Below are positions 17,116 through 39,472 of a stretch of DNA of 64,000 bases, one piece after another. Source of the stretch: a bacterium (lineage in GTDB: Bacteria > Patescibacteriota > Minisyncoccia > Sungbacterales > HO2-52-23); assembly GCA_030697705.1 (NCBI GenBank), contig JAUYPE010000017.1, positions 5,066 through 69,065 on the forward strand. The letters are read 5' to 3'. The first letter of the stretch is position 1. The number at the start of each line of letters is the position of its first letter. The position numbers were made by a program, and so were the translations under genes. Below the pieces are notes generated by a model. That model saw only the letters and a program-made list of their open reading frames with translations. It made no database searches and was not told the origin of the DNA.

Positions 17116-17237
17116 AGGATTCCGCTTGACTTTGTTGTATCAATAATGATTCAAACAAGATCATCTCTTTCCCCTGCAAGGAAAATCAGTTTTTGCGTAT
17201 GATTTTTGAGTATAAACCTACCCCACCCTGCCACTCA

Positions 17238-17606: not shown

Positions 17607-17609
17607 ATT

Positions 17610-20748: not shown

Positions 20749-21348
20749 ACAGCCAGTCGCTCTACCACTGAGCTACGCCGGAATATGATTCTGGAAAAGT
20801 ACGTACCCTCACCATCCGCGACCAGTATAACAAGCGTGCGGAGGATTCGCAAGCAGGTGTATCCGTCCACCTCACATTGGACTTTTCTGATTGAGCGCTT
20901 ACCATAACCGGGACCGTCAATCGTTTTGCGTAAATAGTCCTGTGGATAAGTTTTTCTCGACGCAGCGTTCATGAAAGTTTGACCTGATCAGGATGCAAGA
21001 TTGCAATACTCGCATGATCATTGAGCTGAACTTCAGAAATCTCAAACTGTTCTTCGGTCTTGTTACCTCGCTTCCCCGATCAATCAATGGCTACCTCGCC
21101 AACTACTTTTATTCAATCCTTGCCTACGCGTTACGATAGTTTTCTTTTCTCCGTGATACCTTTTTCCTTCACCAATACGATACGCTTCAAAACTCACATC
21201 ACATGGGTCTGCTTTAGCGCACCCTGTTTATCTGGGGTTTGGGGAGTTTCGTAATTCAAAGAAAGAGTAATTAATAACGACATCATAATACCGGTACTTA
21301 CGTATGACAAGCATGGTTTTATCTACACCCTTCTTTTCAAAGGAACGC

Positions 21349-25658: not shown

Positions 25659-25787
25659 ATAATTTCCTCCAGTATATAAGAGTTTGCTCCGCAAAGAAAG
25701 CAACCGCCTCTCGGGCGGTGTGGATAACTTTATACCCATATGGTATACTGTTCCCGTGGATTGTTCTCTTATGTTATAACTGCTTTT

Positions 25788-26309: not shown

Positions 26310-26465
26310 ACCCGTCCCCTTATAATTTTCGTTACGAGATGTTCAGATTTCGAGCGAGACAAAACAAAAATCTTTCGACATATACGCTGTATATGTCGAA
26401 AGATTTTTGTAAAGTCGTAGCCGAAATGTGAACATTGCAGTAGAAAGGTTATAAGGGGACAGGTC
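26310..26465. repeat. IR-flanked structured element containing a perfect 19-bp-stem hairpin
   Basis: 17-bp inverted repeat gacccgtccccttataa / ttataaggggacaggtc with one mismatch. Inside, a perfect hairpin aaaaatctttcgacatata-cgctg-tatatgtcgaaagattttt (26366-26408). Confidence 0.6.
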
Positions 26466-26491
26466 TTATGTTTGAAGTAAAGAAAGTAAAC

Positions 26492-26533
26492 AAAAAAGGT
26501 CGCCTCGTCCAAGGTGACCTTTTTTGTTTTTGT
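26492..26533. terminator. bidirectional rho-independent terminator (downstream of rpoD and of gene 25788..26303)
   Basis: AAAAAA ggtcgcc tcgtccaa ggtgacc TTTTTTGTTTTT. Confidence 0.6.
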
Positions 26534-26539
26534 GAGAGT

Positions 26540-27805
26540 TTAATACTCCAGCAATTTATGCGCGGAGTCGTGGGTGCGGATGCGCTCAAGCGCCTTTGCC
26601 TCAATCTGGCGGATGCGCTCGCGCGTTACGCCAAACTCCCGTCCCACCTCTTCCAGCGTGTGCGTAATGCCGTCGTCCATGCCAAAACGCATGGCAAGGA
26701 TTCTCTTTTCGCGGTCGGTCAGCTCGTCAATAATCGCCATCAGCTGGTCACGCAGGAGCCGCCGCGCCGCAACTTGCGAAGGCGAGAGCGATTTTTCGTC
26801 TTCAATAAATTCGCCGAGCACCGACTCATCGTCGTCCTCGCCCACGGGCGCCTCCAACGAAACGGTATCCTGCGCTATTTTTTCAATCAAGTGCACTTTT
26901 TCAAGCTCAATATTCATCTCGGCGGCTATTTCTTCCGGAAGCGGTTCGCGCCCCAGATCCTGCACAAGGCGGCGGCGCACCTGCTGGTATTTTGAAATCG
27001 TCTCCCCCATGTGGACGGGAATGCGAATCGTCCGCGCCTGGTCGGCAAGCGCGCGGGTAATCGCCTGTTTGATCCACCACGTTGCGTAGGTTGAAAATTT
27101 ATACCCCCGCCGATAGTCAAATTTCTCCACCGCCTTAAAAAGCCCGATGTTGCCTTCCTGAATAAGGTCAAGCAAGCTCAAGTGCGACGAGCGGCCGACA
27201 TATCTTTTGGCGATAGAAACCACCAGGCGAAGATTGGCCTGCGTGAGTTTTTTGCGTGCCTCGTCGTCGCCCTTCTCAATGCGCCGCGCCAGCGATTTTT
27301 CCTCATCACCGGTGAGCAACGGAATGCGCCCGATCTCGCGCAAATACATCTGCACGGAGTCCTGGCTTAACTGGTCAAAGTCAATCGCCGCTTCTTTTCG
27401 TGCACCTTTCGCTTTAGCGCTTTTTTTGCCCATGGGAACGGTCTGTTTTTCTATCTCTTCTATCAATTCCTTGCTTTCCAGCACGTCAATATTGCCTTTT
27501 TCAAATCGCGTATAGAGATCCTCTAAAAGAAAAATATCATCCTCAATTTTCGGGAAGTAGTAGAGAATTTCGGAATAAGTAACGAAACCGCGGTCGCGTC
27601 CCCGCTTCATAAGCGTCTGCACTTTCGCCTCTATCTCCACGGCGCTCGCCAGTTTTACCTTCAATGGAGGCACGGTTTTTTTTGGTTTCTTCATTATTGC
27701 GCCCGTTTTTTTCTTTTCTTTCGGGCGCGCATGTCTTTTTCGCGCCGGACGCGTACGCGGGGGGGATGGTTTTTTATGCGTTTTCTTTTTTGGTTTGGCG
27801 GCCAT
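26540..27805 (-). CDS. rpoD: RNA polymerase sigma-70 factor RpoD with Lys/Arg-rich N-terminal extension
   Basis: Region 1.2 [12 protein letters not shown], region 2 ([31 protein letters not shown]-like), regions 3 and 4 ([17 protein letters not shown]). Confidence 0.95.
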
Positions 27806-27815: not shown

Positions 27816-29597
27816 TTATGAGCTTAATGCGCGAAGGAGTTCCGAAGTATTTTTAAATTCGCCGAGCAGTGTGGCAACATCCTCGCGGTTCCCCTTGCCC
27901 TCCTGTTCATGGATGCGTCCCGCGAGCGCACCCAGCCGCTCTTTGGCACCCTCTTTCTCCAACTCGCGCCGGCAGAGTGCAAGCTCAACCGCGAGATCTT
28001 TGTCTTTCGCCATCTCGGCGATTGCGTCTCCCTTAAATTGCAAAATAGCAAGCGCATTCGACGGAGCTCCCTCGCTCCCCTCTTGCGGTGATGCACCGAC
28101 ATCGGTGAGGAGATGGAAAATTTCCTTATGCCTAGGCGAGAAGAGTGAAATAGTCTCACCCGCACTCGCCTCGGCCGTCCGCACCGCCGGATCCATCAGC
28201 GAAAGAAGTGCTAAATAACGCTCTTCCAACAAAGCGCGCCGACCCGAAACCGGCTTCACCGGCTCGTTCGCCGCGGGAGCTTGTTCCATCGGTCTGTTTG
28301 TCTCAATAGGCGTTCGCCGCTCCAGCTCTTTGCGAATCGCCTCTTCCGGCACAATCAAACGCCGCGAGAGCTCTCCTATCCAATGCGCCCGCTCTACCTC
28401 GTCGGTCAGCTCGCGAAGAAACGGCAGAAGCAGAGCGGTAATCGCTTTCTTGCCCGAGGCGGTCGCCGGATTCTCCCGCGCAAAAGCCCGTTCCGTATAA
28501 AACTCAACCACGGGCTTAGCTGTCTCAACCGCGCGCGCCCATGCCGCCGGGTCTTCCCGCACGGTGTCGGCAGGGTCATTCCCCGAGGGAATATGCGCCA
28601 CACGGCGGTCAAAGTCAAACTGCGCCGCAAGCGCGAGCGACCGCCTCGTCGCCGACTCCCCCGCCCCGTCCGCATCAAACGAACACACCAGCGTCTCGGC
28701 AAGACGTCGCAGAATCTTTAGTTGCTGGACCGTCAGCGCGGTGCCGGATACGGCGACGGTGTGGGTCACTCCCGCCTGGTGCGACATCACGCAGTCCATG
28801 TAGCCCTCCACAATGACGGCGGTATTTTTTTTGCGAATCTCTTGGCGCGCACGGTCAAAACCATAGAGCACGGATGATTTATCATAGAGCGGCGTCTGCG
28901 GCGTATTAATGTACTTTCCGCCCGAGGCGGACCCGCCTTGGGCGGGTGCTTTTGGATCTTCAAATATCCTGCCGCCGAATCCGATGACCTTCCCGCTCGG
29001 GTCGGCGATTGGGAACATGATTCTGCTTCTGAAGCGGTCGTACCACGAGCCGCGCTCCGGTGACTTTATCGCCAGTCCCGCCTTCCCAATTTCTTCCTGC
29101 GTGAATCCTTTTGTCCCAAGGGCGCGGGAGAGCGTCTCCCAGCTCTGCGGCGCAAAGCCGATGCGAAAGTTTTTGATCGTTTCGGGTGTAAGACCGCGTT
29201 CAGACAAATAGTTCTGAACATCGGATGCTCGCCCAAGTTCGATGATAAAAAACTGCGCCGCACTTTCGCAGAGAGCTCCCAGCCGCCCGCGCTCGGAGCG
29301 TGCCTGCGGATTCTCGCGGCGGATGATGACGCCCGTGCGCTCCGCAAGAAGGTTTAATACCTCGGGAAAACTATGCCCCTCCATTTCCATTAAAAATTGA
29401 AAAACATCCCCCCCTTTTCCGCATCCGAAGCAATGCCAGCTCGCCCGCGCGGGCGAGACGAAAAACGACGGCGTTTTTTCTCCGTGGAAGGGGCAGTTCG
29501 CCTTGTAGTTCACCCCGGCTTTTTGCAACCGCACATACGACTGGATGAACTCCACGATATCAAGCCGTGCTTTGATTTCTTCCGCTGGTGTGGGCAT
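27816..29597 (-). CDS. dnaG: DNA primase DnaG
   Basis: Zinc-binding [23 protein letters not shown] region ([16 protein letters not shown]). Conserved dnaG-rpoD gene order. Confidence 0.9.
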
Positions 29598-29623
29598 AGG
29601 GAAAGTGAGATATTGCCTCCATT

Positions 29624-30994
29624 CTATCCTCTTTCCCCGCCTTTTTCAATCAATTGCTCAACCTTTTGTTTTGCTTCTTCCAGAAGCTCTTTTGCTTTTA
29701 TGCGCGCCTCATGCGATTGCCTCACCAATTCAGCGATTTTTTGTTGAGCCGCTCTTGGTAAAATGGGAATAAGAATATCTTTTATACTCTCTTTTGGTAC
29801 GGCGGTGAGAATAGTGCCAGCACAGCGTTGTGTAAGCTGATTTTGCACAATGAAACTTTTTGCAATAACAAGCAGAACTTCCGGCAGAACTTCATCGCTT
29901 CTGAATTGAAAAAATCCGGTTGATGCCAGATACCCCTCTTGCTCTTGAGTGACAAGAGCAACTTTTCCCAGTGAACCCTCAACACTAGAGACGATTACAT
30001 CGCCCGCTTTCAATACTCTTTTTGCTCTGCTTGGAGCTTCTTTTCCTAAAACTTTCGTAAAGCCGTCAATTGTCCCGATAGCAGAATTAATATTGGAAAG
30101 CTCAACATAGTTAAAAGATTTATCGGGTTGCACCAGTGTATTAAACTTTGCAAGTACATTATCAAATACTTCCTCCAGCGAACTTGCTTTGTCTGACCTT
30201 AGTTTTGCAAGGAGTTTTTTATATTTCGGTTGAAAGTATTCAGCATCCATCCGGTGTGCATTCTCTATGTCCGAGAAATTGATAATGCTGTACAAATCCC
30301 CATCCGTCGTGAAATCCTTTAACCCCAGCTCCTCCAAAAGCAACTGTTCGGCTTGAGTGTAAAGAGATTTTGAATTCTCTAATTCATGGAGAAAATATTT
30401 GTATGTATCCCCTATTTGTTGTGTTACTTTCTGATCAAAAATAGGGATTTTGAACTTTTTAATCTGTCCAAGAAAGATATTTGCCTGAACGCTACTTACT
30501 ATCTCTCGTTGTGTTTGTAGTAAACCATATTTTGAATTGAGAAATGCGGTCAGATAATAAGGTGACATGGTGTCAAGCGGAGTAATTTTAGCGATAGCTT
30601 GATTGGCATTCGCGCTTCGTGGAAGGTTATGTGCTATTGCCGCGTTTCCGATTGTTCCCGCCATAGTGAGTAAAACTTGACCATTGTTGACTTTTGATTT
30701 TTTTAATATCTCATTAACTTTCTCGCTGATGTACTTTACACTGCTCAAATCAATATATCCGTCATGAACATCACCCACATTTATGTATGGTACGCCTGAC
30801 TCTTGCCATTCAATATGACTAGTAAGCGAGTACGCCCCAAAACTGATAACCGATTTTGAAATTTGCTCTAAGGTTTTTGTTTCTAGCATGGTAAATTTTT
30901 GCTCCAAAGCCAAATACTCCGGCTGATAATACTCCGCATCCAGCCGGTGCGCTCCCTCAAGTTGCGATTTTTGGATTATAGAGAAAGTTGCCAT
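29624..30994 (-). CDS. hsdS: restriction-modification specificity (S) subunit with two target-recognition domains
   Basis: Two TRDs, each followed by the conserved helical spacer (IPIFDQKVTQQIGD..; IPILPRAAQQKIAELV..). Start at MATFSII (ORF track 31102 would overlap upstream gene). Confidence 0.75.
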   Translation of the reverse strand: MATFSIIQKSQLEGAHRLDAEYYQPEYLALEQKFTMLETKTLEQISKSVISFGAYSLTSHIEWQESGVPYINVGDVHDGYIDLSSVKYISEKVNEILKKSKVNNGQVLLTMAGTIGNAAIAHNLPRSANANQAIAKITPLDTMSPYYLTAFLNSKYGLLQTQREIVSSVQANIFLGQIKKFKIPIFDQKVTQQIGDTYKYFLHELENSKSLYTQAEQLLLEELGLKDFTTDGDLYSIINFSDIENAHRMDAEYFQPKYKKLLAKLRSDKASSLEEVFDNVLAKFNTLVQPDKSFNYVELSNINSAIGTIDGFTKVLGKEAPSRAKRVLKAGDVIVSSVEGSLGKVALVTQEQEGYLASTGFFQFRSDEVLPEVLLVIAKSFIVQNQLTQRCAGTILTAVPKESIKDILIPILPRAAQQKIAELVRQSHEARIKAKELLEEAKQKVEQLIEKGGERG

Positions 30995-31079
30995 ACATGT
31001 GTGGATAACCCAGTATTGTTGAGTTTTTGTTGGTAGTGTGCTATGTTTAACTTGGTATATCGGAAGAGGGCGTCGACCG

Positions 31080-31889
31080 TTAGGACGATGGCCCTTTTTC
31101 ATTTGTCTCTAGGGATATAGGCAATCTTTGTTGTATGTCACCATCTACAAAGATATTGAATTTATAGTTTTTAAATCCTTGCGTAAAGTCAGAAACGCCC
31201 ACATTCTTCTTAAAATGTTCAAGAAATCTTCGTTTATATTTATCACCGCGCTGAATCATTCCGGTCTTAAATTTCAAGTCATACGATATCGCTCCAATCA
31301 TAAGATCAGCGATTTGAAGCAGATCATTTGATTTTGAGTCAAAACGCGCCACTCCTGCGATGGATAAGCGACTAAGAGCATCATTGATTTTTCTTTTCAC
31401 ATTCACTTCAAATTTTACATCACGAGGTACTGTTACATGATCAGCAATGACGATTGCGATTTCATTTTGCGCGATATTTGACTTGATAAGCCGAATGGTT
31501 ATATCCTCATACGCTTGCCAAGGATTGCCACCAAATTCCCTCTGAAAATAATTCCCTTGTTTATCAAGTGTATATGAGCAGAAATTGAATCCTTCCGTAG
31601 CAAAAAAAGCGTTTATGGCAAAGACAGCGAAATTAAAATTTTTGTCCGAGAGCTTGTTAAATTTAAGCTCATCATAAAATTGTCGTTTGCTCCTCTCATA
31701 AACGGTCTTGCTTTGAAGATAGTATGGCTGTGAGCATTTGATAGCGCCCACGGTAAAAAACGCCTCCGTCCGATTACTCAAACTTCCGCTCTCATCAAGG
31801 AAAAAGAACTTTGACCAGATGCTTTTATAATCGGCGAGCGCAAGATCTCCTCCTTTCTTATCTTTATGAAAAATTTTATCAAACATCAT
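31080..31889 (-). CDS. DUF3800 family protein inserted between the methyltransferase and S-subunit genes
   Basis: N-terminal FLDESG motif and C-terminal LLQIADLMIGAI motif, characteristic of DUF3800 as I recall it. Confidence 0.55.
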   Translation of the reverse strand: MMFDKIFHKDKKGGDLALADYKSIWSKFFFLDESGSLSNRTEAFFTVGAIKCSQPYYLQSKTVYERSKRQFYDELKFNKLSDKNFNFAVFAINAFFATEGFNFCSYTLDKQGNYFQREFGGNPWQAYEDITIRLIKSNIAQNEIAIVIADHVTVPRDVKFEVNVKRKINDALSRLSIAGVARFDSKSNDLLQIADLMIGAISYDLKFKTGMIQRGDKYKRRFLEHFKKNVGVSDFTQGFKNYKFNIFVDGDIQQRLPISLETNEKGPSS

Positions 31890-31899
31890 GATAGTGCAG

Positions 31900-33852
31900 T
31901 CAAAAACTAAACTTTTGCTCTTTTATAAACTTTAAAAATCCGTCGGCGATGTTGTCCAAGTCGCTGTCTAGTATCTTCTTGCCCCTTCCGTCATGAGCGT
32001 AATTTCCAATTGCGTCTTTCTTGTACATATAATCGCCGGAGTTGTCTTTGCCGCCCTTTTTAGACACAGCCATAAAAATCGGATAGTCCTTTTGCGGCTC
32101 ACCAGCTTCTCCGCCCCATTTCTGCAAAAACAGCACGCTCGTTTTTGTGCCGGTGTGAGGCTTGAATGTATTGCCGTGCAATCCGACCACAGCCAGTATC
32201 CGCGCCTTGTCAAAAAGATACTCGCGGATACTCTCCATATTGGTGTTATTAAGCACGCCCTGCGGAAGCACGATTGCCATTCTGCCGCCCGGGCGGATCA
32301 TATCAAGCGTGCGTTCAATGAAAAGAATATGCCGCTCGGCTTTGTTTACCAGTTTGCCTTTTTTCTTGCCGAAAAAATACTGGCGCAAGATGCCATGGTC
32401 TTTAATCTCGCCCGCAAACGGAGGATTGGTGAGCAGTATGTCAAAATTGAGATAGTGAAATGTTTTTTTATTTTCTTCATTGTCTGCGGTGGAGCCCATA
32501 TCAAACAATCTTTTCTGGAGTTCTGATCGCGCATAAAGCAGATGGCCGTCTTCTCCCTGCCATTCTCGGGAATCAAGGGAGTTGAGCTTAAACAGATGCG
32601 ATCTGCCATCTCCGGCGATAAGCATAAGCGCGCGGGATGTTTTGGAAATTTCGTCCGCAAAATCAATACCCCAGATATTTTTTTGAGCATATTCGCGCAT
32701 CGCCTCATCCGAGCCGCGCAAGTGCCTATCCTTGACGGAATACATCGCGCTGATGAGAAATCCGCCGGAGCCAGCCGCCGGATCTATGACATATTCGTCC
32801 GGTTTAGGATCAAGCATTTTGACGGCCATATTGATGACATGGCGCGGGGTGAAATACTGACCTTTCTTGCCTTTGGCAACTTCGGGTATGAGGTACTCAA
32901 ATGCCTCGTCAATGATTGAGAGATCGGAGCCGAACAGACGGGTTCGTTCAAGCTCTCCGACTACAACGGAAAGATGATCGGGAGACAAGCTGATGTTTTC
33001 CTGCTCGTAGAATGTGCCGGGCCATTTTTTGATAGCTTTTTTAAACAGGTCGTTGATGGTGTTGTATGTTTTTCCCGGATCGCGATATTTGCGAAAAAAG
33101 ATTTCTTTGTCCGGACGCACAAGCGCCTCCGACTCATCATAGAGCTTGGCGTACACAAGTTTGAACACCTCATTGAAAACATCAACGCCCGCGTTTGCAA
33201 GGACAAGCTCCTGCATGGAGTCAATGACTTCTTTGAGATTGATTTTCGTGTTTGTATGTTCAAAGTAGGTTTTCTTTGCTTCCAGAAGGTCATCAATGGT
33301 CTGATCCGATCTCGGAAGATCGGGAAGAGTGTCATTGAACTCGCGTGGGTAAAAACGATACAAGATGACGCGCTTGATGCCGTTTCCCCATACACCAATC
33401 TCCGCGCCCTCGGCGTTTAAATAACCTTTCATCTGCTCAATGCCTTTGCTCTCGGTGGGCGCTTTTACCTCCACAAGAATATAGGGGGTGATTTTGTCCG
33501 GCTTATAAACAACGATATCAACGGCTTTACTGTGAATTTCACGCCCGAAATGAATATCTTTTTCCGTATCCATTCGGTCAAACGGATAGTGATAGTGCTT
33601 ATTGAGCTTAGAGAGCCAAAGTTGGCGGACGATTTCTTCCGGCTTGCCGGTATTTTTCTTTTCATCAAAAACGAACCGAAGCTTGCCCGACTTCAAATCT
33701 TTAATGTAATAACGATCTTTTTCTTCTTCGGTAATGTGTAAAACATCATGAATAGCAATTCCCTCAAACTCTCTCAAGCCAAATGCCATTTCAGAGTCCC
33801 TGAAAATCTTTGTGATAATCTCTTCTGTTCTGTTTGGTTTTTTGGTGGGCAT
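31900..33852 (-). CDS. hsdM: N6-adenine DNA methyltransferase subunit with N-terminal PD-(D/E)xK nuclease-like (HsdR_N-type) domain; either type I HsdM fusion or type IIB (BcgI-like) A subunit
   Basis: MTase motif I VIDPAAGSGGFL and motif IV NPPF (LLTNPPFAG). N-terminal DIVVYKPD ... ILVEVKAP fits a restriction-endonuclease fold. No separate hsdR gene in the window. Confidence 0.75.
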   Translation of the reverse strand: MPTKKPNRTEEIITKIFRDSEMAFGLREFEGIAIHDVLHITEEEKDRYYIKDLKSGKLRFVFDEKKNTGKPEEIVRQLWLSKLNKHYHYPFDRMDTEKDIHFGREIHSKAVDIVVYKPDKITPYILVEVKAPTESKGIEQMKGYLNAEGAEIGVWGNGIKRVILYRFYPREFNDTLPDLPRSDQTIDDLLEAKKTYFEHTNTKINLKEVIDSMQELVLANAGVDVFNEVFKLVYAKLYDESEALVRPDKEIFFRKYRDPGKTYNTINDLFKKAIKKWPGTFYEQENISLSPDHLSVVVGELERTRLFGSDLSIIDEAFEYLIPEVAKGKKGQYFTPRHVINMAVKMLDPKPDEYVIDPAAGSGGFLISAMYSVKDRHLRGSDEAMREYAQKNIWGIDFADEISKTSRALMLIAGDGRSHLFKLNSLDSREWQGEDGHLLYARSELQKRLFDMGSTADNEENKKTFHYLNFDILLTNPPFAGEIKDHGILRQYFFGKKKGKLVNKAERHILFIERTLDMIRPGGRMAIVLPQGVLNNTNMESIREYLFDKARILAVVGLHGNTFKPHTGTKTSVLFLQKWGGEAGEPQKDYPIFMAVSKKGGKDNSGDYMYKKDAIGNYAHDGRGKKILDSDLDNIADGFLKFIKEQKFSF

Positions 33853-33855
33853 AGA

Positions 33856-34500
33856 TTATTTTATTGGTTTCCAGTAGTTGTTCTTTAAAACCGAAACCAC
33901 TTTACCTTTGAGCTCTACATCATCAGTAAAAAGGATATTATTATATTTTGGATTTTCCGGTTTGAGATACACATACGGGGGCTTATCATCAGACATAAAT
34001 CGTTTTATCGTACTGTCATCCCCGATCTGCGCATAGACAATCTCACCCGATATAAACTCTTTCTTTGTTTGCACTAAGACAGCATCACCATCATCAATGC
34101 CTGCGTTGATCATAGAATCGCCTAAAACTTTAAGAATGAATAGATCCTCATCCAAGCGAGAAATCTCCTTTGAGAGCGTTTTCCATTCTCCGGAAATCTC
34201 AAACGATTGAATGGGAGTGCCCGCGCTCGTAACTCCAAGGAACGCCGCGAGAGGCGGTTGGTCAAGGACATTATACCCTGTCCGTAATATGGCAAGCCCG
34301 CGCGCCGCCGTCTCATTGCGCCTTATCAATCCCGCTCGCTTGAGTTTCTCTAAAAGGTCCATCACCGACTGATTGGAAGAAACGCCAAGACGCTCCCGCA
34401 TCTCTTCAAATGTGGGTGGGTATCCCGTATCTCTCGTGTACTCGTATATAATACTTAAGAGCTCTTTTTGCCTCTTGGTAATGATCTTCTCCATCACCAT
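33856..34500 (-). CDS. lexA: LexA-family repressor (winged-helix DNA-binding domain plus S24 peptidase)
   Basis: N-terminal LTKRQKELL..GYPPTFEEM..LG..S...V..HL..L.RAGLI. C-terminal LKVLGDSMINAGIDDGDAVLV with catalytic Ser, and Lys in IKRF. Confidence 0.8.
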   Translation of the reverse strand: MVMEKIITKRQKELLSIIYEYTRDTGYPPTFEEMRERLGVSSNQSVMDLLEKLKRAGLIRRNETAARGLAILRTGYNVLDQPPLAAFLGVTSAGTPIQSFEISGEWKTLSKEISRLDEDLFILKVLGDSMINAGIDDGDAVLVQTKKEFISGEIVYAQIGDDSTIKRFMSDDKPPYVYLKPENPKYNNILFTDDVELKGKVVSVLKNNYWKPIK

Positions 34501-34509
34501 TAGTGTACC

Positions 34510-34523
34510 CGACCATATGTTCT
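34510..34523. promoter_or_regulatory. candidate LexA (Cheo-type) operator immediately upstream of lexA
   Basis: cgaccatatgttct matches CGAACRNRYGTTCG at 12/14 positions. It sits 10 nt upstream of the lexA start. Confidence 0.4.
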
Positions 34524-34783
34524 GGATGCAAATAGATGTCTGTGGATAAGTTCCACATAAGTTCGGAAGAAAATGGCGTTAGAATTTCCAATCAAGTAGT
34601 TGGCGAAGGTGAACGAGCCGCTGGAATTATTCACTGCAATGATTGTCATGAATAAGGCGTTGGTGGTATTCTTAACCGAGAGGCGGTAGTTCTCTTTATA
34701 TCGTATCGCCTGTGAAGTAAAGAAATAAAAGGTCGAAACATGTTATCTGCATTATAAACTTTACCGTAATTCTAGAACAAATC

Positions 34784-35671
34784 ATGAAAAAAATAATTAT
34801 CAGCTTGAGTGTGATCGCGGCGATAGCCGCAGTTGCGGTGGGTGCGACCACGGCGTTCTTCTCGGATACCGAGACCTCGCGAGGCAACACCTTTACCGCA
34901 GGAGCGATTGACTTAAAGATTGACAGCAGATGCCACTGGAGCGGCGGGGACACGGGATCAACGACGTGTCCGTGGGAGAGTGCGAATTGGCAAGAAACCG
35001 ATCTGGGAACTCAGAAATTCTTCAGCTTCAATGATATCAAGCCGGGTGACTGGGGAGAGAACACTATCAGCATCCATGTCCACGACAATGACGCATGGGG
35101 ATCGTGGGGCATTGCAAACGCAACGAGCAGTGAGGGCACTTGCACCGAACCTGAAACGGAAACGCAGGCATTGGGAACTACTCCGTGCGTGGAAAACGCC
35201 ACGCCGGGTCAGCTTAGAGCGGGCATGACCGGTAAGGCGTGGCTTGATCAGGGAAGTACTCCGGGATTTCAGTGCAATGATCCGAATGGTGATACGACAA
35301 CAGCCGGTGCGGGATGCCTTCGTGATCCGTTTGAGGGAGATAATGTGTGGCAACAACAATCTGAACCGGTAATCGCGAGCACTGTGGCTCCCCAGTCATT
35401 CTTTGATGTTTTCACGAATATTGATCTGGCAGGACCCCTTGCGGCAGAGGCGAGCGCAAAATGCGAGGCGGCGGCGGTAGACGGACACGATGACTACGGA
35501 CCATGCCACGGCCTTGCACGGGATGGTCGTTTGGTAGGGAGCGTTACTTATTACATCGGCTGGAAGTGGCATCTTGATCCCAGTACCGGAAATGAAGCGC
35601 AAACCGACACGCTTGGCGGCGATGTGTGGTTTAAAGCCGAACAGCACCGCAATAATCCCGGTCCCACCTAA
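34784..35671 (+). CDS. TasA/camelysin-like (peptidase M73 family) secreted protein with SipW-cognate signal peptide
   Basis: Signal MKKIIISLSVIAAIAAVAVGATTAFFSDTE (TIGR04088-type AFFSDTE motif). Camelysin-like FFSFNDIKPGDWGENTISIHV. Confidence 0.7.
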   Translation: MKKIIISLSVIAAIAAVAVGATTAFFSDTETSRGNTFTAGAIDLKIDSRCHWSGGDTGSTTCPWESANWQETDLGTQKFFSFNDIKPGDWGENTISIHVHDNDAWGSWGIANATSSEGTCTEPETETQALGTTPCVENATPGQLRAGMTGKAWLDQGSTPGFQCNDPNGDTTTAGAGCLRDPFEGDNVWQQQSEPVIASTVAPQSFFDVFTNIDLAGPLAAEASAKCEAAAVDGHDDYGPCHGLARDGRLVGSVTYYIGWKWHLDPSTGNEAQTDTLGGDVWFKAEQHRNNPGPT

Positions 35672-35742
35672 CGACGATCTTCGTCTTTGACGTAAACTAA
35701 CCTTCTCTTGGTTCTTATCAGAGCGGAGAGAAGATATGTCTC

Positions 35743-36537
35743 ATGAAAAAGATCATTTTTAGTTTGGGCGTGATCGGCGCGGTTGCCGTTATGGCGGTTG
35801 GGGGTACCGTTGCGTTTTTTAACGACACGGAGACCTCACAGGGTAATGTCTTTATAGCCGGATCCGTGGATCTGCAGGTGGACAGCTTCGGCGCGTCTTA
35901 CAATGGCGAGGATATTGAGACGCCCGGCTCGGCGTGGACCTCCCGAAATTTGACGAACCAGAAATTCTTTTCGTTTGACGACATTAAGCCCGGGGACTAT
36001 GGCATGCGTCACATCAGCGTACATGTGGACGGCAATCCTGCGTGGGCGTGCCTCCTCGTAACGAACAAAGAGGACGAAGAGAATGATCTGAACGATGCGG
36101 AGCATGACGCGGGAGATACCACACCGGATAGGGGCGAGCTCTCGCGCTACCTGCATGCCTTCGGCTGGCAGGACGATGACTCTGACGGAAGGTATGATCC
36201 GCACCATGGCGAAAAGGCGCTCAAAATCCACAACGATCCCGATGCGGACTTTAACTCGTTCTTTGATGTCTTCTATGATCTTGACATAGCCGACTCGCAG
36301 TCCAGCACCGATCCGCTTCCGCCAAATGGCCCGGCAACGACGCGCAATATCGCGGTTGCGTGGTGCGCGGGCGTGCAGTCGGTCAATCATCAGACGGGAG
36401 TAATCTCCTGCGACGGCTCCGATGTGCGGGATGATGCGCAGTCCGACTCGTTCAGTGCCGACGTGGTGCTCTACGGAGAACAGGTGCGCAATAATCCGAA
36501 TTTCAGGTGTGCGGACGTCCTCCTGCCTCCGCTCTAA
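35743..36537 (+). CDS. TasA/camelysin-like secreted protein with SipW-cognate signal peptide (paralog)
   Basis: VAFFNDTETSQGN and FFSFDDIKPGDYGMRHISVHV. Confidence 0.7.
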   Translation: MKKIIFSLGVIGAVAVMAVGGTVAFFNDTETSQGNVFIAGSVDLQVDSFGASYNGEDIETPGSAWTSRNLTNQKFFSFDDIKPGDYGMRHISVHVDGNPAWACLLVTNKEDEENDLNDAEHDAGDTTPDRGELSRYLHAFGWQDDDSDGRYDPHHGEKALKIHNDPDADFNSFFDVFYDLDIADSQSSTDPLPPNGPATTRNIAVAWCAGVQSVNHQTGVISCDGSDVRDDAQSDSFSADVVLYGEQVRNNPNFRCADVLLPPL

Positions 36538-36650
36538 TGTTAAGAAGAGTAACTCCACAAGATATGCGCTAAGACCTTTCACTCCCCCTCTCCGCTTGTG
36601 ACGGAGGGAGGGAGCACAGAGAGCTTATCACACAGGAGGTCTTGATTTTT

Positions 36651-37187
36651 ATGGACACAAAAAAAATTGCCATCACCAGTTATTATGTGTTTGTCAGCGT
36701 ACTCGGCATCGTGGGAGTTTTGGTTGTCGTTTCGGCTTTCCCGATTACCGGTAATTTTAAGATTATGGCGGTGTTGTCCGGCTCTATGGAGCCGGCTATT
36801 CGGACCGGCAGTATTGTCGTCGTGCGTCCCAGTACCAGCTATTCCATTGGCAATATTGTTACCTTCACCGGAACAAGTGGGGGGAAAAGCATCCCGATCA
36901 CGCATCGGGTGATGGAAATACGAGTGGATCGGGGCGTGCCTTCATATATAACTAAAGGAGACGCGAATAATGCGCCCGACGCACGGCTCGTTGCGCACCG
37001 AGAGATTATCGGGGGGTTGGTATTTTCTGTTCCCTATCTTGGCTATGGGGTGGAGACCGCGCGAAAGCCCTACGGTCTTGCGGCACTGATTCTGCTTCCC
37101 GCGGCATTGATCATCATTGACCAGGCGGGAAGAATTAAAAAAGAACTTGCCAGGTTACGACGCGAAAAAGAAGAAAAAACCATCTGA
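36651..37187 (+). CDS. sipW: signal peptidase I, SipW (S26B, archaeal/ER-type)
   Basis: LSGSMEP catalytic Ser box and conserved His in ITHRV. AGGAGG Shine-Dalgarno 12 nt upstream of ATG 36651. Confidence 0.75.
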   Translation: MDTKKIAITSYYVFVSVLGIVGVLVVVSAFPITGNFKIMAVLSGSMEPAIRTGSIVVVRPSTSYSIGNIVTFTGTSGGKSIPITHRVMEIRVDRGVPSYITKGDANNAPDARLVAHREIIGGLVFSVPYLGYGVETARKPYGLAALILLPAALIIIDQAGRIKKELARLRREKEEKTI

Positions 37188-37189
37188 AC

Positions 37190-39463
37190 ATGAAAACGAA
37201 AAGTTTTTTTCCAAAAATAACGGCGCTCGCCCTTATCCTCACGCTTAACGCGGGCGGGATTTTGACGGTCGGCTCCACGCTCGCGTTTTTTAACGATGCC
37301 GAGACAGCGGGTGATAGTTTGTTTGTGGCGGGAATACTTAATTTTTCCCTCGCTTCTGATGAATGGACTCCTGTTGATAGTGCCGGGGCGCTCAAATCAG
37401 GAGATATGATAACGCGGCATATGAGCATTCTGGCGGGTGACAGTATTCCCTTTCAATATCGGATCAGAACAATAAAAACATCGGGAGATGATGCGTTTTG
37501 CGGCGCACTGCACATGGTTGCGAGCCGTGGGGCTGTTTCGTTGTATGACGGCGTGCTGATGGATTTTGATCTCACGCCTCCGGTAGAAATTGAGGGAGAC
37601 GGACAGGATGATTGGTCGTTTAAGATGAGTATGCCGACCAGTGCTGGCTCCTTTGTCGGGAAAACATGCGAATTTCGCTTTGTCGTGGACGGATGGCAGG
37701 TGGAGTTTCCCGACGGGACAGGCGGATTCAGCGACCGAGAGGCGCTTGAAAATATTCTTGAGAGCGATGATACGGCTCGAGAAGACGGCGGGCAAAACAT
37801 TTCAGCGCTGGAGGACTCATACGGCGAACAGGAGCATCCGGATGACACGAATGGAACTGCGGGCGACCTGCGGGTAAAATCACAATCGGGCGGGAAGAAT
37901 AAACGCGCCTTCGTCCGCTTTGATTTCCCTTTTCCCGACGGGACGGCAATTCAGTCGGCGGCATTAAAAATGTTCATGGATGATGCGCCTTCCGCGTCGC
38001 GGACGTATGCGGTCGCCCGAACGCTCTCGCCATGGACTGAAGCGAGTATTTCGTGGAACAATCAGCCGGGAACATCCAGTCCCATGAGCGCATCGGCGGT
38101 AACCGGAATTACCGATGATCAATGGCTTGCGTGGGATGTCAAAGATGACGCGAGCGCATTTGTGGCGGGTACGGCTACCAATTATGGATGGACCGTATTT
38201 GACGCGATGGAGAGTTCGGCAACCGCCCGTGAGGGAAAGTTCAGCTCAAGTGAAAATAGCCATCAAGACAAGCGACCGGTGCTGGAGGTCGCATTCAGCG
38301 CACCCCCCGCAACCACATCGCATATCGTCATAAACGAAGTATACGCCGATGTGGGAGACGGAAGGGGTTCCGAAGGGACGAATGAGTGGGTTGAGCTCTA
38401 TAACCCGACGGAGTCGGCTGTTGACATCAAGGATTGGCAGGTGTGCGATGCGGCATCGTGCGATTCGTTTGCAACAACTTCATCCTCAATCATGCTTCCG
38501 AGCCGCGGATTCGCAGTGGTGACGGCTGGTACCTCCACCTGGCAACATTGGGTGCTTCCCGAAGGAGCGATACGGATCGTTCTTGGCGCGAACATCGGCG
38601 GTGGACTCGCAAATCCCGGAGATGCGGTTATTTTGAAGAATGCCTCCAGCGCCGAAATTGACGCGATGAGCTACGGGACCGACACCTCAAAATTAAATCC
38701 TGCAGTTCCCGTTTCAGGCGAGGGCAACTCACTTGCGCGAATCGTAAAGGGATACGACGCAGAATTGGCAAACGACTGGATTATCAATGCGACGGCAAAT
38801 CCGGGAACCAATCCATCCGAGGATGGTACCAGTGAGGTCATGCGCTTCACGAGCCGCGGTAGTGAAGTTGCGGCCGGTGAGAACGGCTTGCCCGCTCTGG
38901 ACACTACGGCGATTCCCGACGAACCGGAAAAACAGATTCTGAAAGAAGAGCCACCGCCTGAAGTTAAGAAGGATGGAGAAGAAACGGAGGACGCCGGGGT
39001 AAGAGATGCGATTAACACCGATGGGGAGCCGGCGTCCTCCCATGCGGCACCAACCGATGGAGATGAATTGCCGCTTATGGTACCGTCAGAAGAAGATCAA
39101 GCAACCACGATGGTGGTTGTTGAATCACACGACGCTGCGACGACAACCTTGTTGATTCTTGAAGGAGAGCTACAATCAACGCCTGTGGAGGAGCGTGTGC
39201 CTGCCGATACAGAGACACCTCACGCCGACGGGACGGAACAAGATATCGTACCGGAACCGGATGGGGTAAATCACAGCAACATGGGTGAGAGTCAAATTTT
39301 ACCTCCGGCGACCATCCCGGAAGTTACGAATGAAAACGCCCTACTGCCAGCGGAAAATAAGCCCGCTGGTGGCGGTGATGGAGGGGGTGATCCGACCACT
39401 CCCGCGGGCGGCGAGGAAGTACCGTTGCCCACACCCATTGCCGACAACGCGGTATTGCAATAA
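37190..39463 (+). CDS. large secreted protein with SipW-cognate signal peptide and a lamin-tail domain (LTD)
   Basis: LAFFNDAETAGD signal motif. LTD-like HIVINEVYADVGDG...NEWVELYNPTESAVDIKDWQV...GDAVILKNASSAEIDAMSYG. Acidic, Pro/Glu-rich C-terminus. Confidence 0.6.
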   Translation: MKTKSFFPKITALALILTLNAGGILTVGSTLAFFNDAETAGDSLFVAGILNFSLASDEWTPVDSAGALKSGDMITRHMSILAGDSIPFQYRIRTIKTSGDDAFCGALHMVASRGAVSLYDGVLMDFDLTPPVEIEGDGQDDWSFKMSMPTSAGSFVGKTCEFRFVVDGWQVEFPDGTGGFSDREALENILESDDTAREDGGQNISALEDSYGEQEHPDDTNGTAGDLRVKSQSGGKNKRAFVRFDFPFPDGTAIQSAALKMFMDDAPSASRTYAVARTLSPWTEASISWNNQPGTSSPMSASAVTGITDDQWLAWDVKDDASAFVAGTATNYGWTVFDAMESSATAREGKFSSSENSHQDKRPVLEVAFSAPPATTSHIVINEVYADVGDGRGSEGTNEWVELYNPTESAVDIKDWQVCDAASCDSFATTSSSIMLPSRGFAVVTAGTSTWQHWVLPEGAIRIVLGANIGGGLANPGDAVILKNASSAEIDAMSYGTDTSKLNPAVPVSGEGNSLARIVKGYDAELANDWIINATANPGTNPSEDGTSEVMRFTSRGSEVAAGENGLPALDTTAIPDEPEKQILKEEPPPEVKKDGEETEDAGVRDAINTDGEPASSHAAPTDGDELPLMVPSEEDQATTMVVVESHDAATTTLLILEGELQSTPVEERVPADTETPHADGTEQDIVPEPDGVNHSNMGESQILPPATIPEVTNENALLPAENKPAGGGDGGGDPTTPAGGEEVPLPTPIADNAVLQ

Positions 39464-39472
39464 AAGAATATA

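What the first reader, a model, noticed from the sequence alone, without database searches (positions are those of the whole stretch)
29624..34523. AT-rich island: lexA - MTase with N-terminal nuclease-like domain - DUF3800 - S subunit, co-oriented and running into dnaG-rpoD
The roughly 4.9 kb block 29624-34523 is markedly more AT-rich than its flanks, which suggests horizontal acquisition. Four genes are packed with gaps of 4-85 nt on one strand: a LexA-type repressor, a 650-aa gamma-class N6A methyltransferase whose first ~170 aa look like a PD-(D/E)xK (HsdR_N-type) nuclease module, a DUF3800 protein, and a two-TRD specificity subunit. No canonical hsdR is present. The restriction function may therefore sit in the MTase-fused nuclease domain (type IIB/BcgI-like architecture). 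Alternatively the locus is a guard-type system in which DUF3800 is the effector, placed exactly where the anticodon nuclease prrC sits between hsdM and hsdS in the E. coli prr locus. A candidate LexA operator overlaps the lexA start, so the unit could be DNA-damage (phage-induction) responsive. The block is immediately followed, 26 nt downstream of the S-subunit stop and on the same strand, by dnaG-rpoD.
Basis: partly seen in the sequence, partly recalled or inferred. Interest (0 to 1): 0.8.

Follow-up and report, generated by a model that had tools for sequence, protein, structure and literature searches.

The report
LexA-controlled restriction module with swappable cargo
This is a horizontally spread restriction-modification cassette of tiny groundwater (CPR/Patescibacteria) bacteria, led by its own LexA-type repressor, whose slot between the methylase-nuclease gene and the specificity gene holds different nuclease or protease genes in different genomes (here an RNase H-like DUF3800 gene).

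Summary
Four co-oriented genes (lexA, nuclease-MTase fusion, DUF3800, S subunit) sit at 34500..29624 in the lowest-GC 4.9 kb of the window. Only DUF3800 and S are strongly AT-rich.

- **A mobile unit.** Of 27 other loci with this MTase and readable upstream DNA, 25 have lexA directly upstream, in unrelated chromosomal contexts. The closest relative (DnaG 90% identical) lacks the block. Homology resumes exactly at the end of S.
- **Type IIB-like enzyme.** The best solved-structure match is RM.BsaXI. All four BsaXI catalytic nuclease residues are invariant in 17 homologues. No hsdR is present.
- **Regulation.** A conserved palindrome between -35 and -10 of the lexA promoter is the likely operator.
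- **Cargo slot.** The M–S interval holds DUF3800, NYN, a trypsin-like protease, a barnase-like RNase, unknown ORFs, or nothing.
- **DUF3800.** It has an RNase HII-like fold. About 40% of its copies follow RM methylases of two families, and many others sit beside housekeeping or other non-RM genes. It carries a conserved, covarying 3′ hairpin not in Rfam.

No activity was tested: cleavage, SOS induction and the cargo's role are inferred. Verdict: a new variant of a known kind, moderately interesting.

The parts
34541..34549 (-). DnaA-box-like motif TTATCCACA upstream of the lexA promoter
   Evidence: Present (at most 1 mismatch) within 140 nt upstream of lexA in 23 of 27 readable loci, against about 0.06 expected per 140 nt. 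Its function is unknown.
34502..34531 (-). lexA promoter with candidate LexA operator: -35 TTGCAT (34531..34526), imperfect palindrome CAGAACATATGGTCGG (34524..34509), -10 TACACT (34507..34502)
   Evidence: Conserved in 17 of 17 loci aligned, with consensus ccGA(C/A)(T/C)A-NN-T(A/G)GTCGGGTAT.AT. It is a perfect 20-bp palindrome in L007. Each locus has only one strong PWM site. The T[AG]GTC[AG]G half-site occurs in 23 of 27 loci.
33856..34500 (-). lexA-type repressor (winged HTH plus S24 self-cleaving peptidase); the likely true start is ATG 34494
   Evidence: TIGR00498 scores 153 bits against a cut-off of 111, with matching Pfam domains. The Ala-Gly site is present in 15 of 17 (Gly-Gly in L018, His-Ala-Gly in L017), and the Ser (GDSM) and Lys (KRF) are invariant. 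The stop lies 1-4 nt from the MTase start in 12 of 17 loci. It is only about 30% identical to a LexA not attached to an RM gene, in L001.
31900..33852 (-). RM fusion protein, 650 aa: N-terminal PD-(D/E)xK nuclease (aa 71-180, nt 33642..33313), helical connector, gamma-class N6-adenine MTase (aa 313-603, nt 32916..32044; motif I DPAAGSGGF, motif IV NPPF)
   Evidence: Pfam. PADLOC MTase_I scores 557 bits over the full length. RM.BsaXI is the best PDB hit, at E = 2e-26 for the single sequence and 5e-45 for the profile. E97/D112/E128/K130 align with BsaXI E73/D90/E105/K107 and are invariant in 17 of 17.
31080..31889 (-). Cargo gene: DUF3800, a predicted type 2 RNase H-like nuclease (D32-E33, D150, Q192xxD195 invariant)
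31062..31100 (-). Conserved structured hairpin at the 3′ end of DUF3800 (A-tract, stem and U-tract, with the UAA stop codon in the apical loop)
   Evidence: The core occurs in 82 of 101 loci held. Seven of 15 pairs covary, 93.5% of cells pair, and 0 of 500 shuffles reach the observed score. It folds in the window copy. No Rfam match.
31000..31008 (-). Second TTATCCACA box, 5 nt upstream of the S start codon
   Evidence: Similar boxes lie at cargo-slot junctions in L007, L008, L009, L010 and L021.
29624..30994 (-). Specificity (S) subunit with two target-recognition domains, 456 aa from the corrected start
   Evidence: Methylase_S in two stretches. PADLOC Specificity_I scores 147 bits. PDB type I S subunits match at E = 1e-24. 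S identity between loci is only 33-58% while M is 58-87%.
29621..29650 (-). Island/host junction: the host dnaG promoter (TTGAAA-17-TAGAAT), into which the S ORF reads for its last 9 codons
   Evidence: Homology to relative L105 (88% nt identity) starts at 29650. The promoter-like site was found.

Best explanation
The block is a self-contained, horizontally mobile restriction-modification cassette that is common in CPR/Patescibacteria.

**Core enzyme.** The core is a type IIB-like (BcgI/BsaXI-like) two-protein enzyme. The RM polypeptide carries an N-terminal PD-(D/E)xK nuclease fused to a gamma-class N6-adenine methyltransferase. A separate two-TRD S subunit sets a bipartite recognition sequence. 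The likely assembly is (RM)2S, which methylates host sites and cuts unmethylated incoming DNA without an HsdR motor.

**Regulation.** The first gene encodes a LexA-family repressor. It binds a palindrome between the -35 and -10 boxes of its own, apparently leaderless, promoter. It thereby holds the whole operon at a low, autoregulated level, in the position that C-proteins occupy in other RM systems. Its self-cleavage machinery is intact, so RecA bound to single-stranded DNA (from DNA damage or phage attack) should derepress the operon.

**Cargo slot.** The interval between RM and S is a cargo slot. In this genome it holds a DUF3800 cassette: an RNase HII-like predicted nuclease with its own conserved 3′ hairpin. 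In other genomes it holds NYN or barnase-like RNases, a trypsin-like protease, unknown ORFs, or nothing. The cargo is most likely an accessory second-line effector that is co-regulated with the RM enzyme, not a required subunit.

**Shown:** gene content, domain and catalytic-residue conservation, linkage, mobility, operator conservation, fold.
**Inferred:** cleavage activity and geometry, LexA binding and SOS induction, the cargo's function.
For: - **Linkage.** lexA lies directly upstream of this MTase family in 25 of 27 loci with readable upstream DNA. An S gene lies downstream wherever the contig allows.
- **Mobility.** Flanks are unshared between loci. The relative with DnaG 90% identical lacks the block, and the junction sits at the S stop inside the host dnaG promoter. 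The MTase has more than 120 homologues at 75% or above across CPR classes, while the next DnaG is 57%. The block has low GC.
- **Type IIB likeness.** RM.BsaXI is the best PDB hit, at E = 5e-45 against 1e-25 for the best other methyltransferase chain (7vru), and the match includes the nuclease stretch. The four residues whose alanine substitution inactivates BsaXI (PMC11997821) are invariant in 17 of 17 homologues. There is no HsdM_N domain. No hsdR occurs in the window or as a conserved neighbour. S is far more divergent than M, as expected when specificity is diversifying.
- **Regulation.** The promoter and palindrome are conserved in every aligned locus, with one site per locus. The LexA Ser and Lys are invariant and the Ala-Gly site is present in 15 of 17. 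lexA and M are translationally close-coupled. Two loci have an Xre-type HTH in the same position. LexA homologues with the same operator also head a DpnI gene, and one is fused to another MTase. This suggests a controller role.
- **Cargo slot.** Contents are variable and effector-like. M and S are adjacent in L017.
- **DUF3800.** RNase HII-like fold with an invariant DE..D..QxxD.
Against: - No biochemical or expression data exist for any member. The enzyme could methylate only, although an invariant nuclease tetrad argues against that.
- Inducing a restriction enzyme during DNA damage runs opposite to the restriction alleviation known for E. coli type I systems (my own knowledge). It looks risky for the host. 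LexA may therefore serve only as an autorepressor, or for establishment after transfer.
- I could not determine whether these genomes have a second, housekeeping LexA. So the gene may also be the host's SOS regulator. No recA or other SOS gene was available to test for operators.
- The hairpin after DUF3800 looks like a terminator. How S is expressed downstream of it is unexplained, and no convincing internal promoter was found.
- The AF2 model of the RM protein was too poor to test the architecture structurally.
- Sanchez-Osuna et al. 2017 on the Patescibacteria LexA regulon could not be read. It may already describe this linkage.
Confidence: 0.7

Rival explanations
1. PrrC-type guard system. 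The cargo (here DUF3800) is the real point of the locus. It is a latent toxic nuclease, held inactive by binding to the RM-S complex, and released when a phage anti-restriction protein disables the enzyme. This causes abortive infection.
For: - The cargo sits exactly where prrC sits, between M and S.
- The slot holds alternative effector-type domains that also serve as effectors in retrons and Lamassu: DUF3800, Trypsin_2, NYN, PBECR3.
- The same DUF3800 subfamily also follows canonical hsdM in full hsdM-hsdS-hsdR loci.
- Overall, 28 of 69 DUF3800 copies are directly downstream of an RM methylase.
Against: - About 60% of the DUF3800 copies do not follow an RM methylase, and many of those sit beside housekeeping genes (LGT, SecF, enolase). 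The protein therefore works without an RM partner.
- The slot can be empty (L017).
- Nothing indicates a physical interaction.
- DUF3800 is unrelated to PrrC.
- On the tree, slot-borne and other copies are interleaved. That fits a hopping cassette better than a co-evolved partner.
Confidence: 0.2
2. Coincidental passenger. The DUF3800 gene plus its 3′ hairpin is an autonomous small mobile or selfish cassette, or a CPR housekeeping nuclease. It lands preferentially in permissive, co-directional operon gaps such as the one after RM methylase genes, and has no functional tie to the RM enzyme or to LexA.
For: - Gene and hairpin travel together into many contexts. The hairpin is conserved even where the ORF ends early.
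- Neighbours are almost always on the same strand.
- There have been at least four independent entries into the slot.
- TTATCCACA boxes lie at cassette junctions.
- The family is very conserved (60-87% identity) and abundant in Patescibacteria.
Against: - Finding 41% of copies directly after RM methylases of two different architectures is far above chance for a genome of roughly 1,000 genes.
- PADLOC independently lists a close model (PDC-M04A) as a defence-island candidate.
- DUF3800 is a recurrent effector partner of retrons and of Cas12a2.
- No recombinase or target duplication was seen.
Confidence: 0.2
3. Orphan type I-like methyltransferase for epigenetic regulation. M + S only methylate, the N-terminal domain is a non-catalytic DNA-binding relic, and the neighbouring lexA is simply the organism's SOS repressor.
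For: - Public annotation and PADLOC file the protein as a type I M subunit or N-6 DNA methylase.
- No R subunit is present.
- LexA scores as an equivalog of genuine LexA.
Against: - The nuclease tetrad is invariant over 17 homologues down to 58% identity.
- The closest solved relative is an active type IIB restriction enzyme, not HsdM.
- lexA travels with the module into different contexts. It has island-like GC and is only about 30% identical to a LexA not attached to an RM gene.
- S alleles diverge fast.
Confidence: 0.08

Closest known systems
Type IIB restriction-modification enzymes (BcgI, BsaXI, BaeI): RM fusion subunit plus S subunit
   Same: - Both have an N-terminal PD-(D/E)xK nuclease fused to a gamma-class N6A MTase in one roughly 650-aa polypeptide (BcgI-sized).
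- Both have a separate two-TRD S subunit and no translocase.
- BsaXI is the best solved-structure match, and its four essential nuclease residues are conserved.
   Different: - The S subunit here is full type I size (456 aa).
- It lacks BsaXI's C-terminal knob and paddle extension (650 aa against 916 aa).
- The operon is led by a LexA-type repressor and is interrupted by a cargo gene. Neither feature was mentioned in the type IIB/type I passages I read, and the 2025 RM review never mentions LexA.
- Cleavage on both sides of the site is untested.
E. coli prr locus (EcoprrI type IC RM with the anticodon nuclease PrrC embedded in the hsd operon)
   Same: A latent-effector-type gene is embedded inside an RM operon next to the M and S genes. 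The concept is an RM enzyme plus a second-line effector.
   Different: - The effector here is an RNase HII-like DUF3800, not an ABC-ATPase anticodon nuclease.
- The host RM is type IIB-like without HsdR.
- The slot content varies between genomes.
- DUF3800 also occurs away from RM genes.
- Masking by the RM complex has not been shown.
C-protein (controller) regulated RM systems
   Same: Both have a small autoregulatory DNA-binding protein encoded at the head of the RM operon, acting on a palindromic operator in its own promoter (for C-proteins; here). Two related loci carry an Xre-type HTH in the same position.
   Different: The regulator here is a full LexA (winged HTH plus S24 self-cleaving peptidase). 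This adds a potential DNA-damage input. C-proteins are Xre-type activator-repressors that time R against M, which is meaningless for an R-M fusion.
MADS (methylation-associated defence system, mad1-8)
   Same: The gene order is parallel: regulator (mad1), MTase (mad2), two intervening genes, S subunit (mad5). The window's M and S are the nearest NCBIfam relatives of MAD2 and MAD5.
   Different: - Scores fall far below the equivalog cut-offs (304 against 720; 172 against 400).
- The mandatory mad6-8 genes are absent, because dnaG follows S directly.
- LexA and DUF3800 match no MADS family.
DUF3800 effectors of type VII retrons and of Cas12a2-associated TPR-DUF3800 proteins
   Same: Same Pfam family, the same RNase H2-like fold prediction and the same DE/QxxD motifs. 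In all cases it is a recurrent accessory of a defence module and is associated with structured RNA.
   Different: - No reverse transcriptase or CRISPR is nearby.
- The associated RNA element is a 3′ hairpin that no Rfam family matched in the window or in nine related loci.
- The PADLOC DUF3800_VII score is weak (23 bits).

Membership tests
Type IIB RM (BcgI/BsaXI-like) | One polypeptide with an N-terminal PD-(D/E)xK nuclease and a gamma-class N6-adenine MTase | tested here: met
   HSDR_N_2 at aa 71-180 and N6_Mtase at aa 313-603. Motifs DPAAGSGGF and NPPF are invariant. The profile hits RM.BsaXI at E = 5e-45 in two stretches.
Type IIB RM (BcgI/BsaXI-like) | Catalytic E...D...ExK residues of the nuclease are conserved | tested here: met
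   E97, D112, E128 and K130 align with BsaXI E73, D90, E105 and K107. They are invariant in 17 of 17 homologues.
Type IIB RM (BcgI/BsaXI-like) | Separate (or fused) S module with two TRDs, and no ATP-dependent translocase subunit | tested here: met
   S has two Methylase_S stretches and matches type I S structures. No ResIII/SWI2_SNF2 ORF occurs in the window, and no flanking gene is conserved across loci.
Type IIB RM (BcgI/BsaXI-like) | Cuts both strands on both sides of a bipartite site; 2RM:1S stoichiometry | not testable with these tools
   This needs purified enzyme or in vivo restriction assays.
Classical type I RM (HsdR-HsdM-HsdS) | HsdR helicase-nuclease subunit present | tested here: not met
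   None in the window or next to the module in the other loci. By contrast, true type I loci L059 and L098 have a 1007-aa HsdR.
Classical type I RM (HsdR-HsdM-HsdS) | HsdM with an HsdM_N domain that scores as the hsdM equivalog | tested here: not met
   No PF12161 hit. TIGR00497 scores 42 bits against a cut-off of 243.
MADS | MAD6, MAD7 and MAD8 present (mandatory in the authors' model) | tested here: not met
   dnaG starts 26 nt after S. The model definition was read.
MADS | M and S reach the MAD2/MAD5 equivalog cut-offs | tested here: not met
   304 bits against 720, and 172 bits against 400.
LexA (SOS repressor family) | Winged-HTH LexA DNA-binding domain plus S24 peptidase with the Ala-Gly site and Ser/Lys dyad | tested here: met
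   TIGR00498 scores 153 bits against a cut-off of 111. The Ser (GDSM) and Lys (KRF) are invariant and the Ala-Gly site is present in 15 of 17, including the window.
LexA (SOS repressor family) | Palindromic operator in its own promoter | tested here: met
   Conserved GA(C/A)(T/C)A-NN-T(A/G)GTC palindrome between -35 and -10 in all aligned loci. Binding itself was not tested.
LexA (SOS repressor family) | Controls the host's DNA-repair regulon (recA, uvr and so on) | tested here: inconclusive
   No recA occurs in any sequence held. Each locus has only one strong operator. Whole genomes could not be scanned.
PrrC-type RM guard | Effector gene embedded between RM subunit genes | tested here: met
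   DUF3800 lies between M and S. The slot recurs in 14 MTase-centred loci.
PrrC-type RM guard | Effector homologous to PrrC/RloC (ABC-ATPase plus anticodon nuclease) | tested here: not met
   The only Pfam hit is DUF3800, and the fold is RNase HII-like.
PrrC-type RM guard | Effector silenced by the RM complex and triggered by anti-restriction | not testable with these tools
   This needs co-purification and phage assays.
DUF3800 (PF12686) | Pfam score above gathering; N-terminal DE and C-terminal QxxD motifs; RNase H-like fold | tested here: met
Type VII retron | Reverse transcriptase and msr/msd RNA next to DUF3800 | tested here: not met
   No RT occurs among the block's ORFs. No retron or DUF3800 RNA family appears in Rfam scans.
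PADLOC candidate PDC-M04 | All components of the candidate system present | tested here: inconclusive
   Only PDC-M04A is matched (69 bits). The composition of PDC-M04 could not be found in the literature held.

The most novel reading that the evidence does not exclude
In CPR/Patescibacteria, LexA-family repressors have been recruited as the dedicated controllers of restriction and defence operons: type IIB-like RM, DpnI, and a LexA-MTase fusion. Each uses the same operator and a DnaA-box-like motif. Restriction is thereby wired to the DNA-damage signal. The slot after the methylase gene works as an exchangeable effector socket, so one LexA-gated promoter drives both DNA restriction and a swappable suicide or RNA-targeting effector. 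DUF3800 would act together with its own conserved 3′ RNA hairpin.
Probability: 0.3. Interest if true: 0.75.

Novelty: new variant of a known kind. Interest (0 to 1): 0.6.

Why it matters
**Regulation of restriction.** RM systems are usually described as constitutive or C-protein controlled. A 2025 review of about 270,000 characters never mentions LexA. A widespread cassette in which a self-cleaving SOS-type repressor heads the operon would add a new regulatory logic for restriction. Induction by DNA damage would be the opposite of classical restriction alleviation. It would also give a handle on how ultra-small CPR bacteria deploy defence.

**Gene discovery.** The variable slot between the methylase and specificity genes is a natural catalogue of candidate effector genes, several with no family match.

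**DUF3800.** The data make this long-standing unknown more testable. It has an RNase HII-like fold, recurs after methylase genes, and has a newly seen conserved hairpin that could be its RNA partner or its control element.

**Annotation.** These proteins are filed as "N-6 DNA methylase" or "type I M". They are better described as type IIB-like RM fusions.

Tried and rejected
1. The canonical GAAC-N4-GTTC box as evidence for LexA control. One-mismatch matches are below chance in the window. I replaced it with the cross-locus operator.
2. My first tblastn using only the window's own proteins labelled many DUF3800 loci as stand-alone. Upstream reading frames showed HsdM-like C-termini. Pfam re-scoring then found 28 of 69 upstream neighbours to be RM methylases, so the first estimate was discarded.
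3. "lexA is always upstream of the MTase". This was corrected after L034 and L035 turned out to carry an Xre-type HTH instead.
4. AF2 model of the 650-aa RM protein. 
5. Rfam search for DUF3800-I..XI or any other family, in the block and in nine related loci. Nothing was found.
6. Viral contigs searched for the MTase and for DUF3800. No hits, so there is no evidence that the module is phage-borne.
7. recA or other SOS genes on which to test operator sharing. None are in the sequence held.
8. A second hairpin (GAUACU..AGUAU) downstream of the first. Not supported by pair counts.
9. A clean empty site. Only the dnaG-side breakpoint could be fixed, because the relative also differs in the adjacent 6 kb.
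10. Literature. PDC-M04 was not found. The Patescibacteria LexA regulon paper is not held.
11. MADS membership was rejected.

Full report
**1. The observation**

- lexA 34500..33856
- a 650-aa methyltransferase 33852..31900
- DUF3800 31889..31080
- an S-subunit ORF 31102..29624
- dnaG 29597..27816
- rpoD 27805..26540

Family models confirm every domain call.
- LexA: LexA_DNA_bind plus Peptidase_S24, and the NCBIfam lexA equivalog at 153 bits against a cut-off of 111.
- MTase: HSDR_N_2 at aa 71-180 plus N6_Mtase at aa 313-603.
- DUF3800: 37 bits against a cut-off of 21.
- S: two Methylase_S stretches.

Two coordinates need correcting. All homologous S proteins begin MxxYSIIxKSQLEG, so the real S start is ATG 30994. 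That leaves an 85-nt gap after DUF3800 instead of an overlap. The spacing to the promoter in homologues suggests that lexA starts at the third codon, 34494.

The block has the lowest GC of any 4.9-kb stretch in the window: 0.425 against 0.488, rank 3 of 591. The depression is concentrated in DUF3800 (0.375) and S (0.402). The MTase (0.458) and lexA (0.44) are only mildly low.

No ORF in the window looks like hsdR. The organism is a Patescibacteria/CPR MAG.

**2. The four genes are part of a recurrent, mobile unit, but DUF3800 is not a fixed member**

A scan of one genome per species with the MTase returned 14 true relatives at 58-87% identity. They come from Vogel-, Azam-, Adler-, Taylor- and Peregrinibacteria, Paceibacterota and others.
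- Every one has a lexA homologue immediately upstream, and an S gene downstream where the contig allows.
- The same holds in two loci reached through DUF3800, in two more from Levyibacteriota and a Margulisiibacteriota-labelled bin, and in seven metagenomic loci.
- Two near-duplicate loci (L034, L035) instead carry a 68-aa Xre-type HTH gene in that position.
- The tally is LexA in 25 of 27 loci with readable upstream DNA.

Flanking genes are essentially unshared between loci, and dnaG-rpoD is adjacent only in this genome.

The closest relative available (DnaG 90% identical, flanks 82-88% identical at the DNA level) has no lexA, MTase, DUF3800 or S.
- Homology resumes at window 29650, the -35 box of the host dnaG promoter.
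- The S ORF reads nine codons into that host sequence and stops inside the -10 box.
- The other boundary cannot be fixed, because the relative also differs in the next 6 kb.

The next-best DnaG is only 57% identical, whereas the MTase has more than 120 homologues at 75% or above. That contrast is the signature of horizontal spread. No copy was found on viral contigs.

**3. The enzyme is type IIB-like**

Among solved structures the best match is RM.BsaXI, a type IIB restriction-modification enzyme.
- The single sequence gives E = 2e-26.
- A profile of 20 family members gives E = 5e-45, against 1e-25 for the next-best methyltransferase chain (7vru), followed by named type I M proteins. The match comes in two stretches, covering the nuclease domain and the connector plus methyltransferase.

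The BsaXI cryo-EM paper shows that E73A, D90A, E105A and K107A abolish cleavage, and that these residues are conserved across type IIB enzymes (PMC11997821). They align with E97, D112, E128 and K130 of the window protein, which are invariant in all 17 homologues examined.

Further points:
- There is no HsdM_N domain, and the hsdM equivalog scores 42 bits against a cut-off of 243.
- The S subunit resembles type I S proteins. It is much more divergent between loci (33-58%) than the MTase (58-87%), as expected when specificity is being diversified.
- MADS is the nearest named defence system by NCBIfam. Scores are far below cut-off and the mandatory mad6-8 genes are absent.
- Cleavage itself, its geometry and the subunit stoichiometry are inferred, not shown.
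- An AF2 model of the protein was too poor to use.

**4. LexA looks like the module's controller**

Upstream of lexA, all 17 aligned loci share the same layout:
- a TTGAC-type -35 box;
- an imperfect palindrome with consensus ccGA(C/A)(T/C)A-NN-T(A/G)GTCGGgt, which is a perfect 20-mer in L007;
- an overlapping TATNAT -10 box that ends 6-7 nt before the start codon, which implies a leaderless transcript.

The window's copy is CAGAACATATGGTCGG at 34524..34509. A weight matrix finds exactly one strong site per locus.

The cross-locus conservation is what carries the evidence.

The LexA proteins keep the catalytic Ser and Lys in all 17. The Ala-Gly cleavage site is present in 15 of 17; L018 has Gly-Gly and L017 has His-Ala-Gly. 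The lexA stop lies 1-4 nt from the MTase start in 12 of 17 loci.

The module's LexA clade is at least 44% identical internally. It is only about 30% identical to a LexA that is not attached to an RM gene, in another Parcubacteria genome.

LexA homologues with the same operator also head other restriction genes:
- a DpnI-family endonuclease in L044;
- a true LexA-N6/N4-MTase fusion protein in L068.

Together with the Xre-HTH variant, this places LexA in the niche that C-proteins fill in other RM systems, with a potential DNA-damage input added.

Limits of this inference:
- Binding and induction are inferred.
- I could not test whether this LexA also controls host repair genes, because no recA is in the held sequence.
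- Damage-induced restriction would run opposite to classical restriction alleviation (my own knowledge).
- I found no prior description of this arrangement in the library. The most relevant paper, on the Patescibacteria LexA regulon, is not held.

**5. The M-S interval is a cargo slot**

In 14 MTase-centred loci with a readable slot, it contains:
- this DUF3800 family (L013);
- a distant DUF3800 (L021);
- NYN RNases (L019, L103);
- a Trypsin_2 protease related to retron-XI and LmuA effectors (L014);
- a PBECR3 barnase/RelE-like protein (L008);
- DUF2806 plus an unknown ORF (L009);
- ORFs with no family match (L010, L011, L012, L015, L104);
- a 724-nt gap without an ORF (L016);
- nothing at all, with M and S 12 nt apart (L017).

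So the base system is lexA-RM-S, and DUF3800 is one interchangeable insert.

**6. DUF3800 seen from its own side**

The window's protein belongs to a very conserved Patescibacteria subfamily: 548 hits, with the top 120 at 60% identity or above.

Of 69 copies with a readable upstream neighbour, 28 directly follow an RM-type N6-adenine methylase.
- Thirteen of those have the HSDR_N_2 fusion architecture.
- At least eight are canonical HsdM in complete hsdM-hsdS-hsdR loci that also carry other cargo, such as DUF4145.
- The remaining 41 follow other genes, many of them housekeeping genes such as LGT, SecF and enolase, and others Fic or HTH genes.

On a distance tree, slot-borne copies form at least four clades interleaved with copies from other contexts.

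It is not obligatory, which argues against DUF3800 being a dedicated subunit or a strictly RM-dependent guard.

**7. Seen in passing**

The last seven codons of DUF3800 and the following 25 nt or so form a hairpin at window 31100..31062, with the UAA stop codon in the apical loop.
- Its core is nearly invariant in 82 of 101 loci, including at synonymous positions and where the ORF ends upstream of it.
- Seven of 15 pairs change on both sides and 93.5% of cells pair. No shuffle out of 500 and no slid control comes close.
- No Rfam family matches it. It is therefore not one of the eleven published DUF3800 RNA motifs.
- It looks like a terminator with a sequence-specific apical part. How S is expressed beyond it is unexplained.

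A DnaA-box consensus, TTATCCACA, lies upstream of lexA in 23 of 27 loci, against about 1.6 expected. It also lies 5 nt before the S start and at several slot junctions. Its meaning is unknown.

**8. Verdict**

The finding is real. The four-gene system is better described as a three-part core (LexA controller, RM fusion, S) with an exchangeable cargo.

The enzyme is a new member of a known kind. The LexA-headed, cargo-bearing organisation is a new variant of a known kind.

All activities remain to be shown.

Noticed in passing
window 31062-31100 (minus strand); also 82 of 101 loci held, e.g. L007 3840-3900, L001 8790-8850: A conserved, covarying hairpin sits at the 3′ end of DUF3800 genes, with the stop codon UAA in its loop and an A-tract and U-tract flanking the stem. 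The core GGCCATCGTCCTAACGGTCGACGCC is nearly invariant even at synonymous sites. No Rfam family matches it. It may be a new DUF3800-associated RNA element, or a terminator with a protein-binding tip.
   Followed up: yes
window 34541-34549, 31000-31008, 58223-58231, 51596-51604, 25719-25727, 20941-20949; lexA promoters of L006-L021, L029, L039-L044, L068, L079-L083: The exact DnaA-box consensus TTATCCACA is over-represented: 80 exact copies in 0.97 Mb held, against about 7 expected. It lies upstream of lexA in 23 of 27 loci, at cargo-slot junctions, and just upstream of several gene starts in the window. Its role is unknown; it could be DnaA acting as a regulator, a junction signal, or a promoter element.
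   Followed up: partly
L044 5765-7206; L042 7968-10285; L068 4005-5471: LexA homologues with the same operator and DnaA-box layout head other restriction genes. L044 has lexA followed by a DpnI-family endonuclease. L042 has lexA followed by DUF6996/DUF6997. L068 has a single 488-aa ORF that fuses LexA (HTH plus S24) to an N6_N4 DNA methylase, followed by NYN and DUF3800 genes.
   Followed up: partly
L034 293-511 and L035 444-662: In a 58%-identity branch of the same MTase family, the gene ahead of the MTase is a 68-aa Xre-type HTH (like a C-protein) plus a RadC-N-like fragment, instead of LexA. The regulator position is therefore exchangeable.
   Followed up: partly
L006 3339-3710; L009 9610-10000; L018 9625-10000: Three loci carry a conserved ORF of about 125 aa between lexA and the MTase. 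It begins MEIKKLKSH.P..HDNTE.DLI, has two predicted hydrophobic helices, and matches no Pfam family. It looks like a second, optional insertion point in the module.
   Followed up: no
L059 5217-14762; L098 2052-11043 (also L030, L033, L066, L092): Complete canonical type I systems (HsdM_N-type hsdM, hsdS, 1007-aa hsdR) carry the same DUF3800 cassette immediately after hsdM. Further embedded genes follow it (DUF4145, an Abi_alpha-like gene, unknown ORFs).
   Followed up: partly
L105 9847-9865 (relative lacking the module), about 125 nt upstream of its dnaG: TTATCCACA is immediately followed by TAGTCGGGG, that is, a DnaA box plus the right half of the module's operator. A TATAAT lies 30 nt further on, facing the divergent FIST gene, at the same chromosomal spot where the window carries the module. 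It could be the scar of a lost module, a target site, or coincidence. This was not resolved.
   Followed up: partly
window 26350-26531, just downstream of rpoD: Several weak, overlapping sub-threshold Rfam hits (Thr_leader, mir-3688 on both strands, OrzO-P, STnc70) point to a strongly self-complementary stretch, probably a bidirectional terminator.
   Followed up: no
window 13000-18000: A second low-GC stretch (0.39-0.46) holds a patatin-like phospholipase (14738-15763) and an ASCH-domain protein (16132-16698). It may be another acquired or defence-related patch.
   Followed up: no
window 34784-40756: A cluster of TasA/camelysin-like secreted proteins with SipW-type signal peptides (34784-35671, 35743-36537), an S24/S26 signal-peptidase-like gene (36642-37187) and a CBM96/LTD surface protein (37190-39463) lies next to the module. 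It is also absent from the closest relative, but it has host-like GC (0.533).
   Followed up: partly
protein P0242: A partial DnaG of 412 aa, 100% identical to the window's, is recorded on a 1,559-nt contig in another assembly. This suggests that assemblies of this organism tend to break near the island.
   Followed up: no
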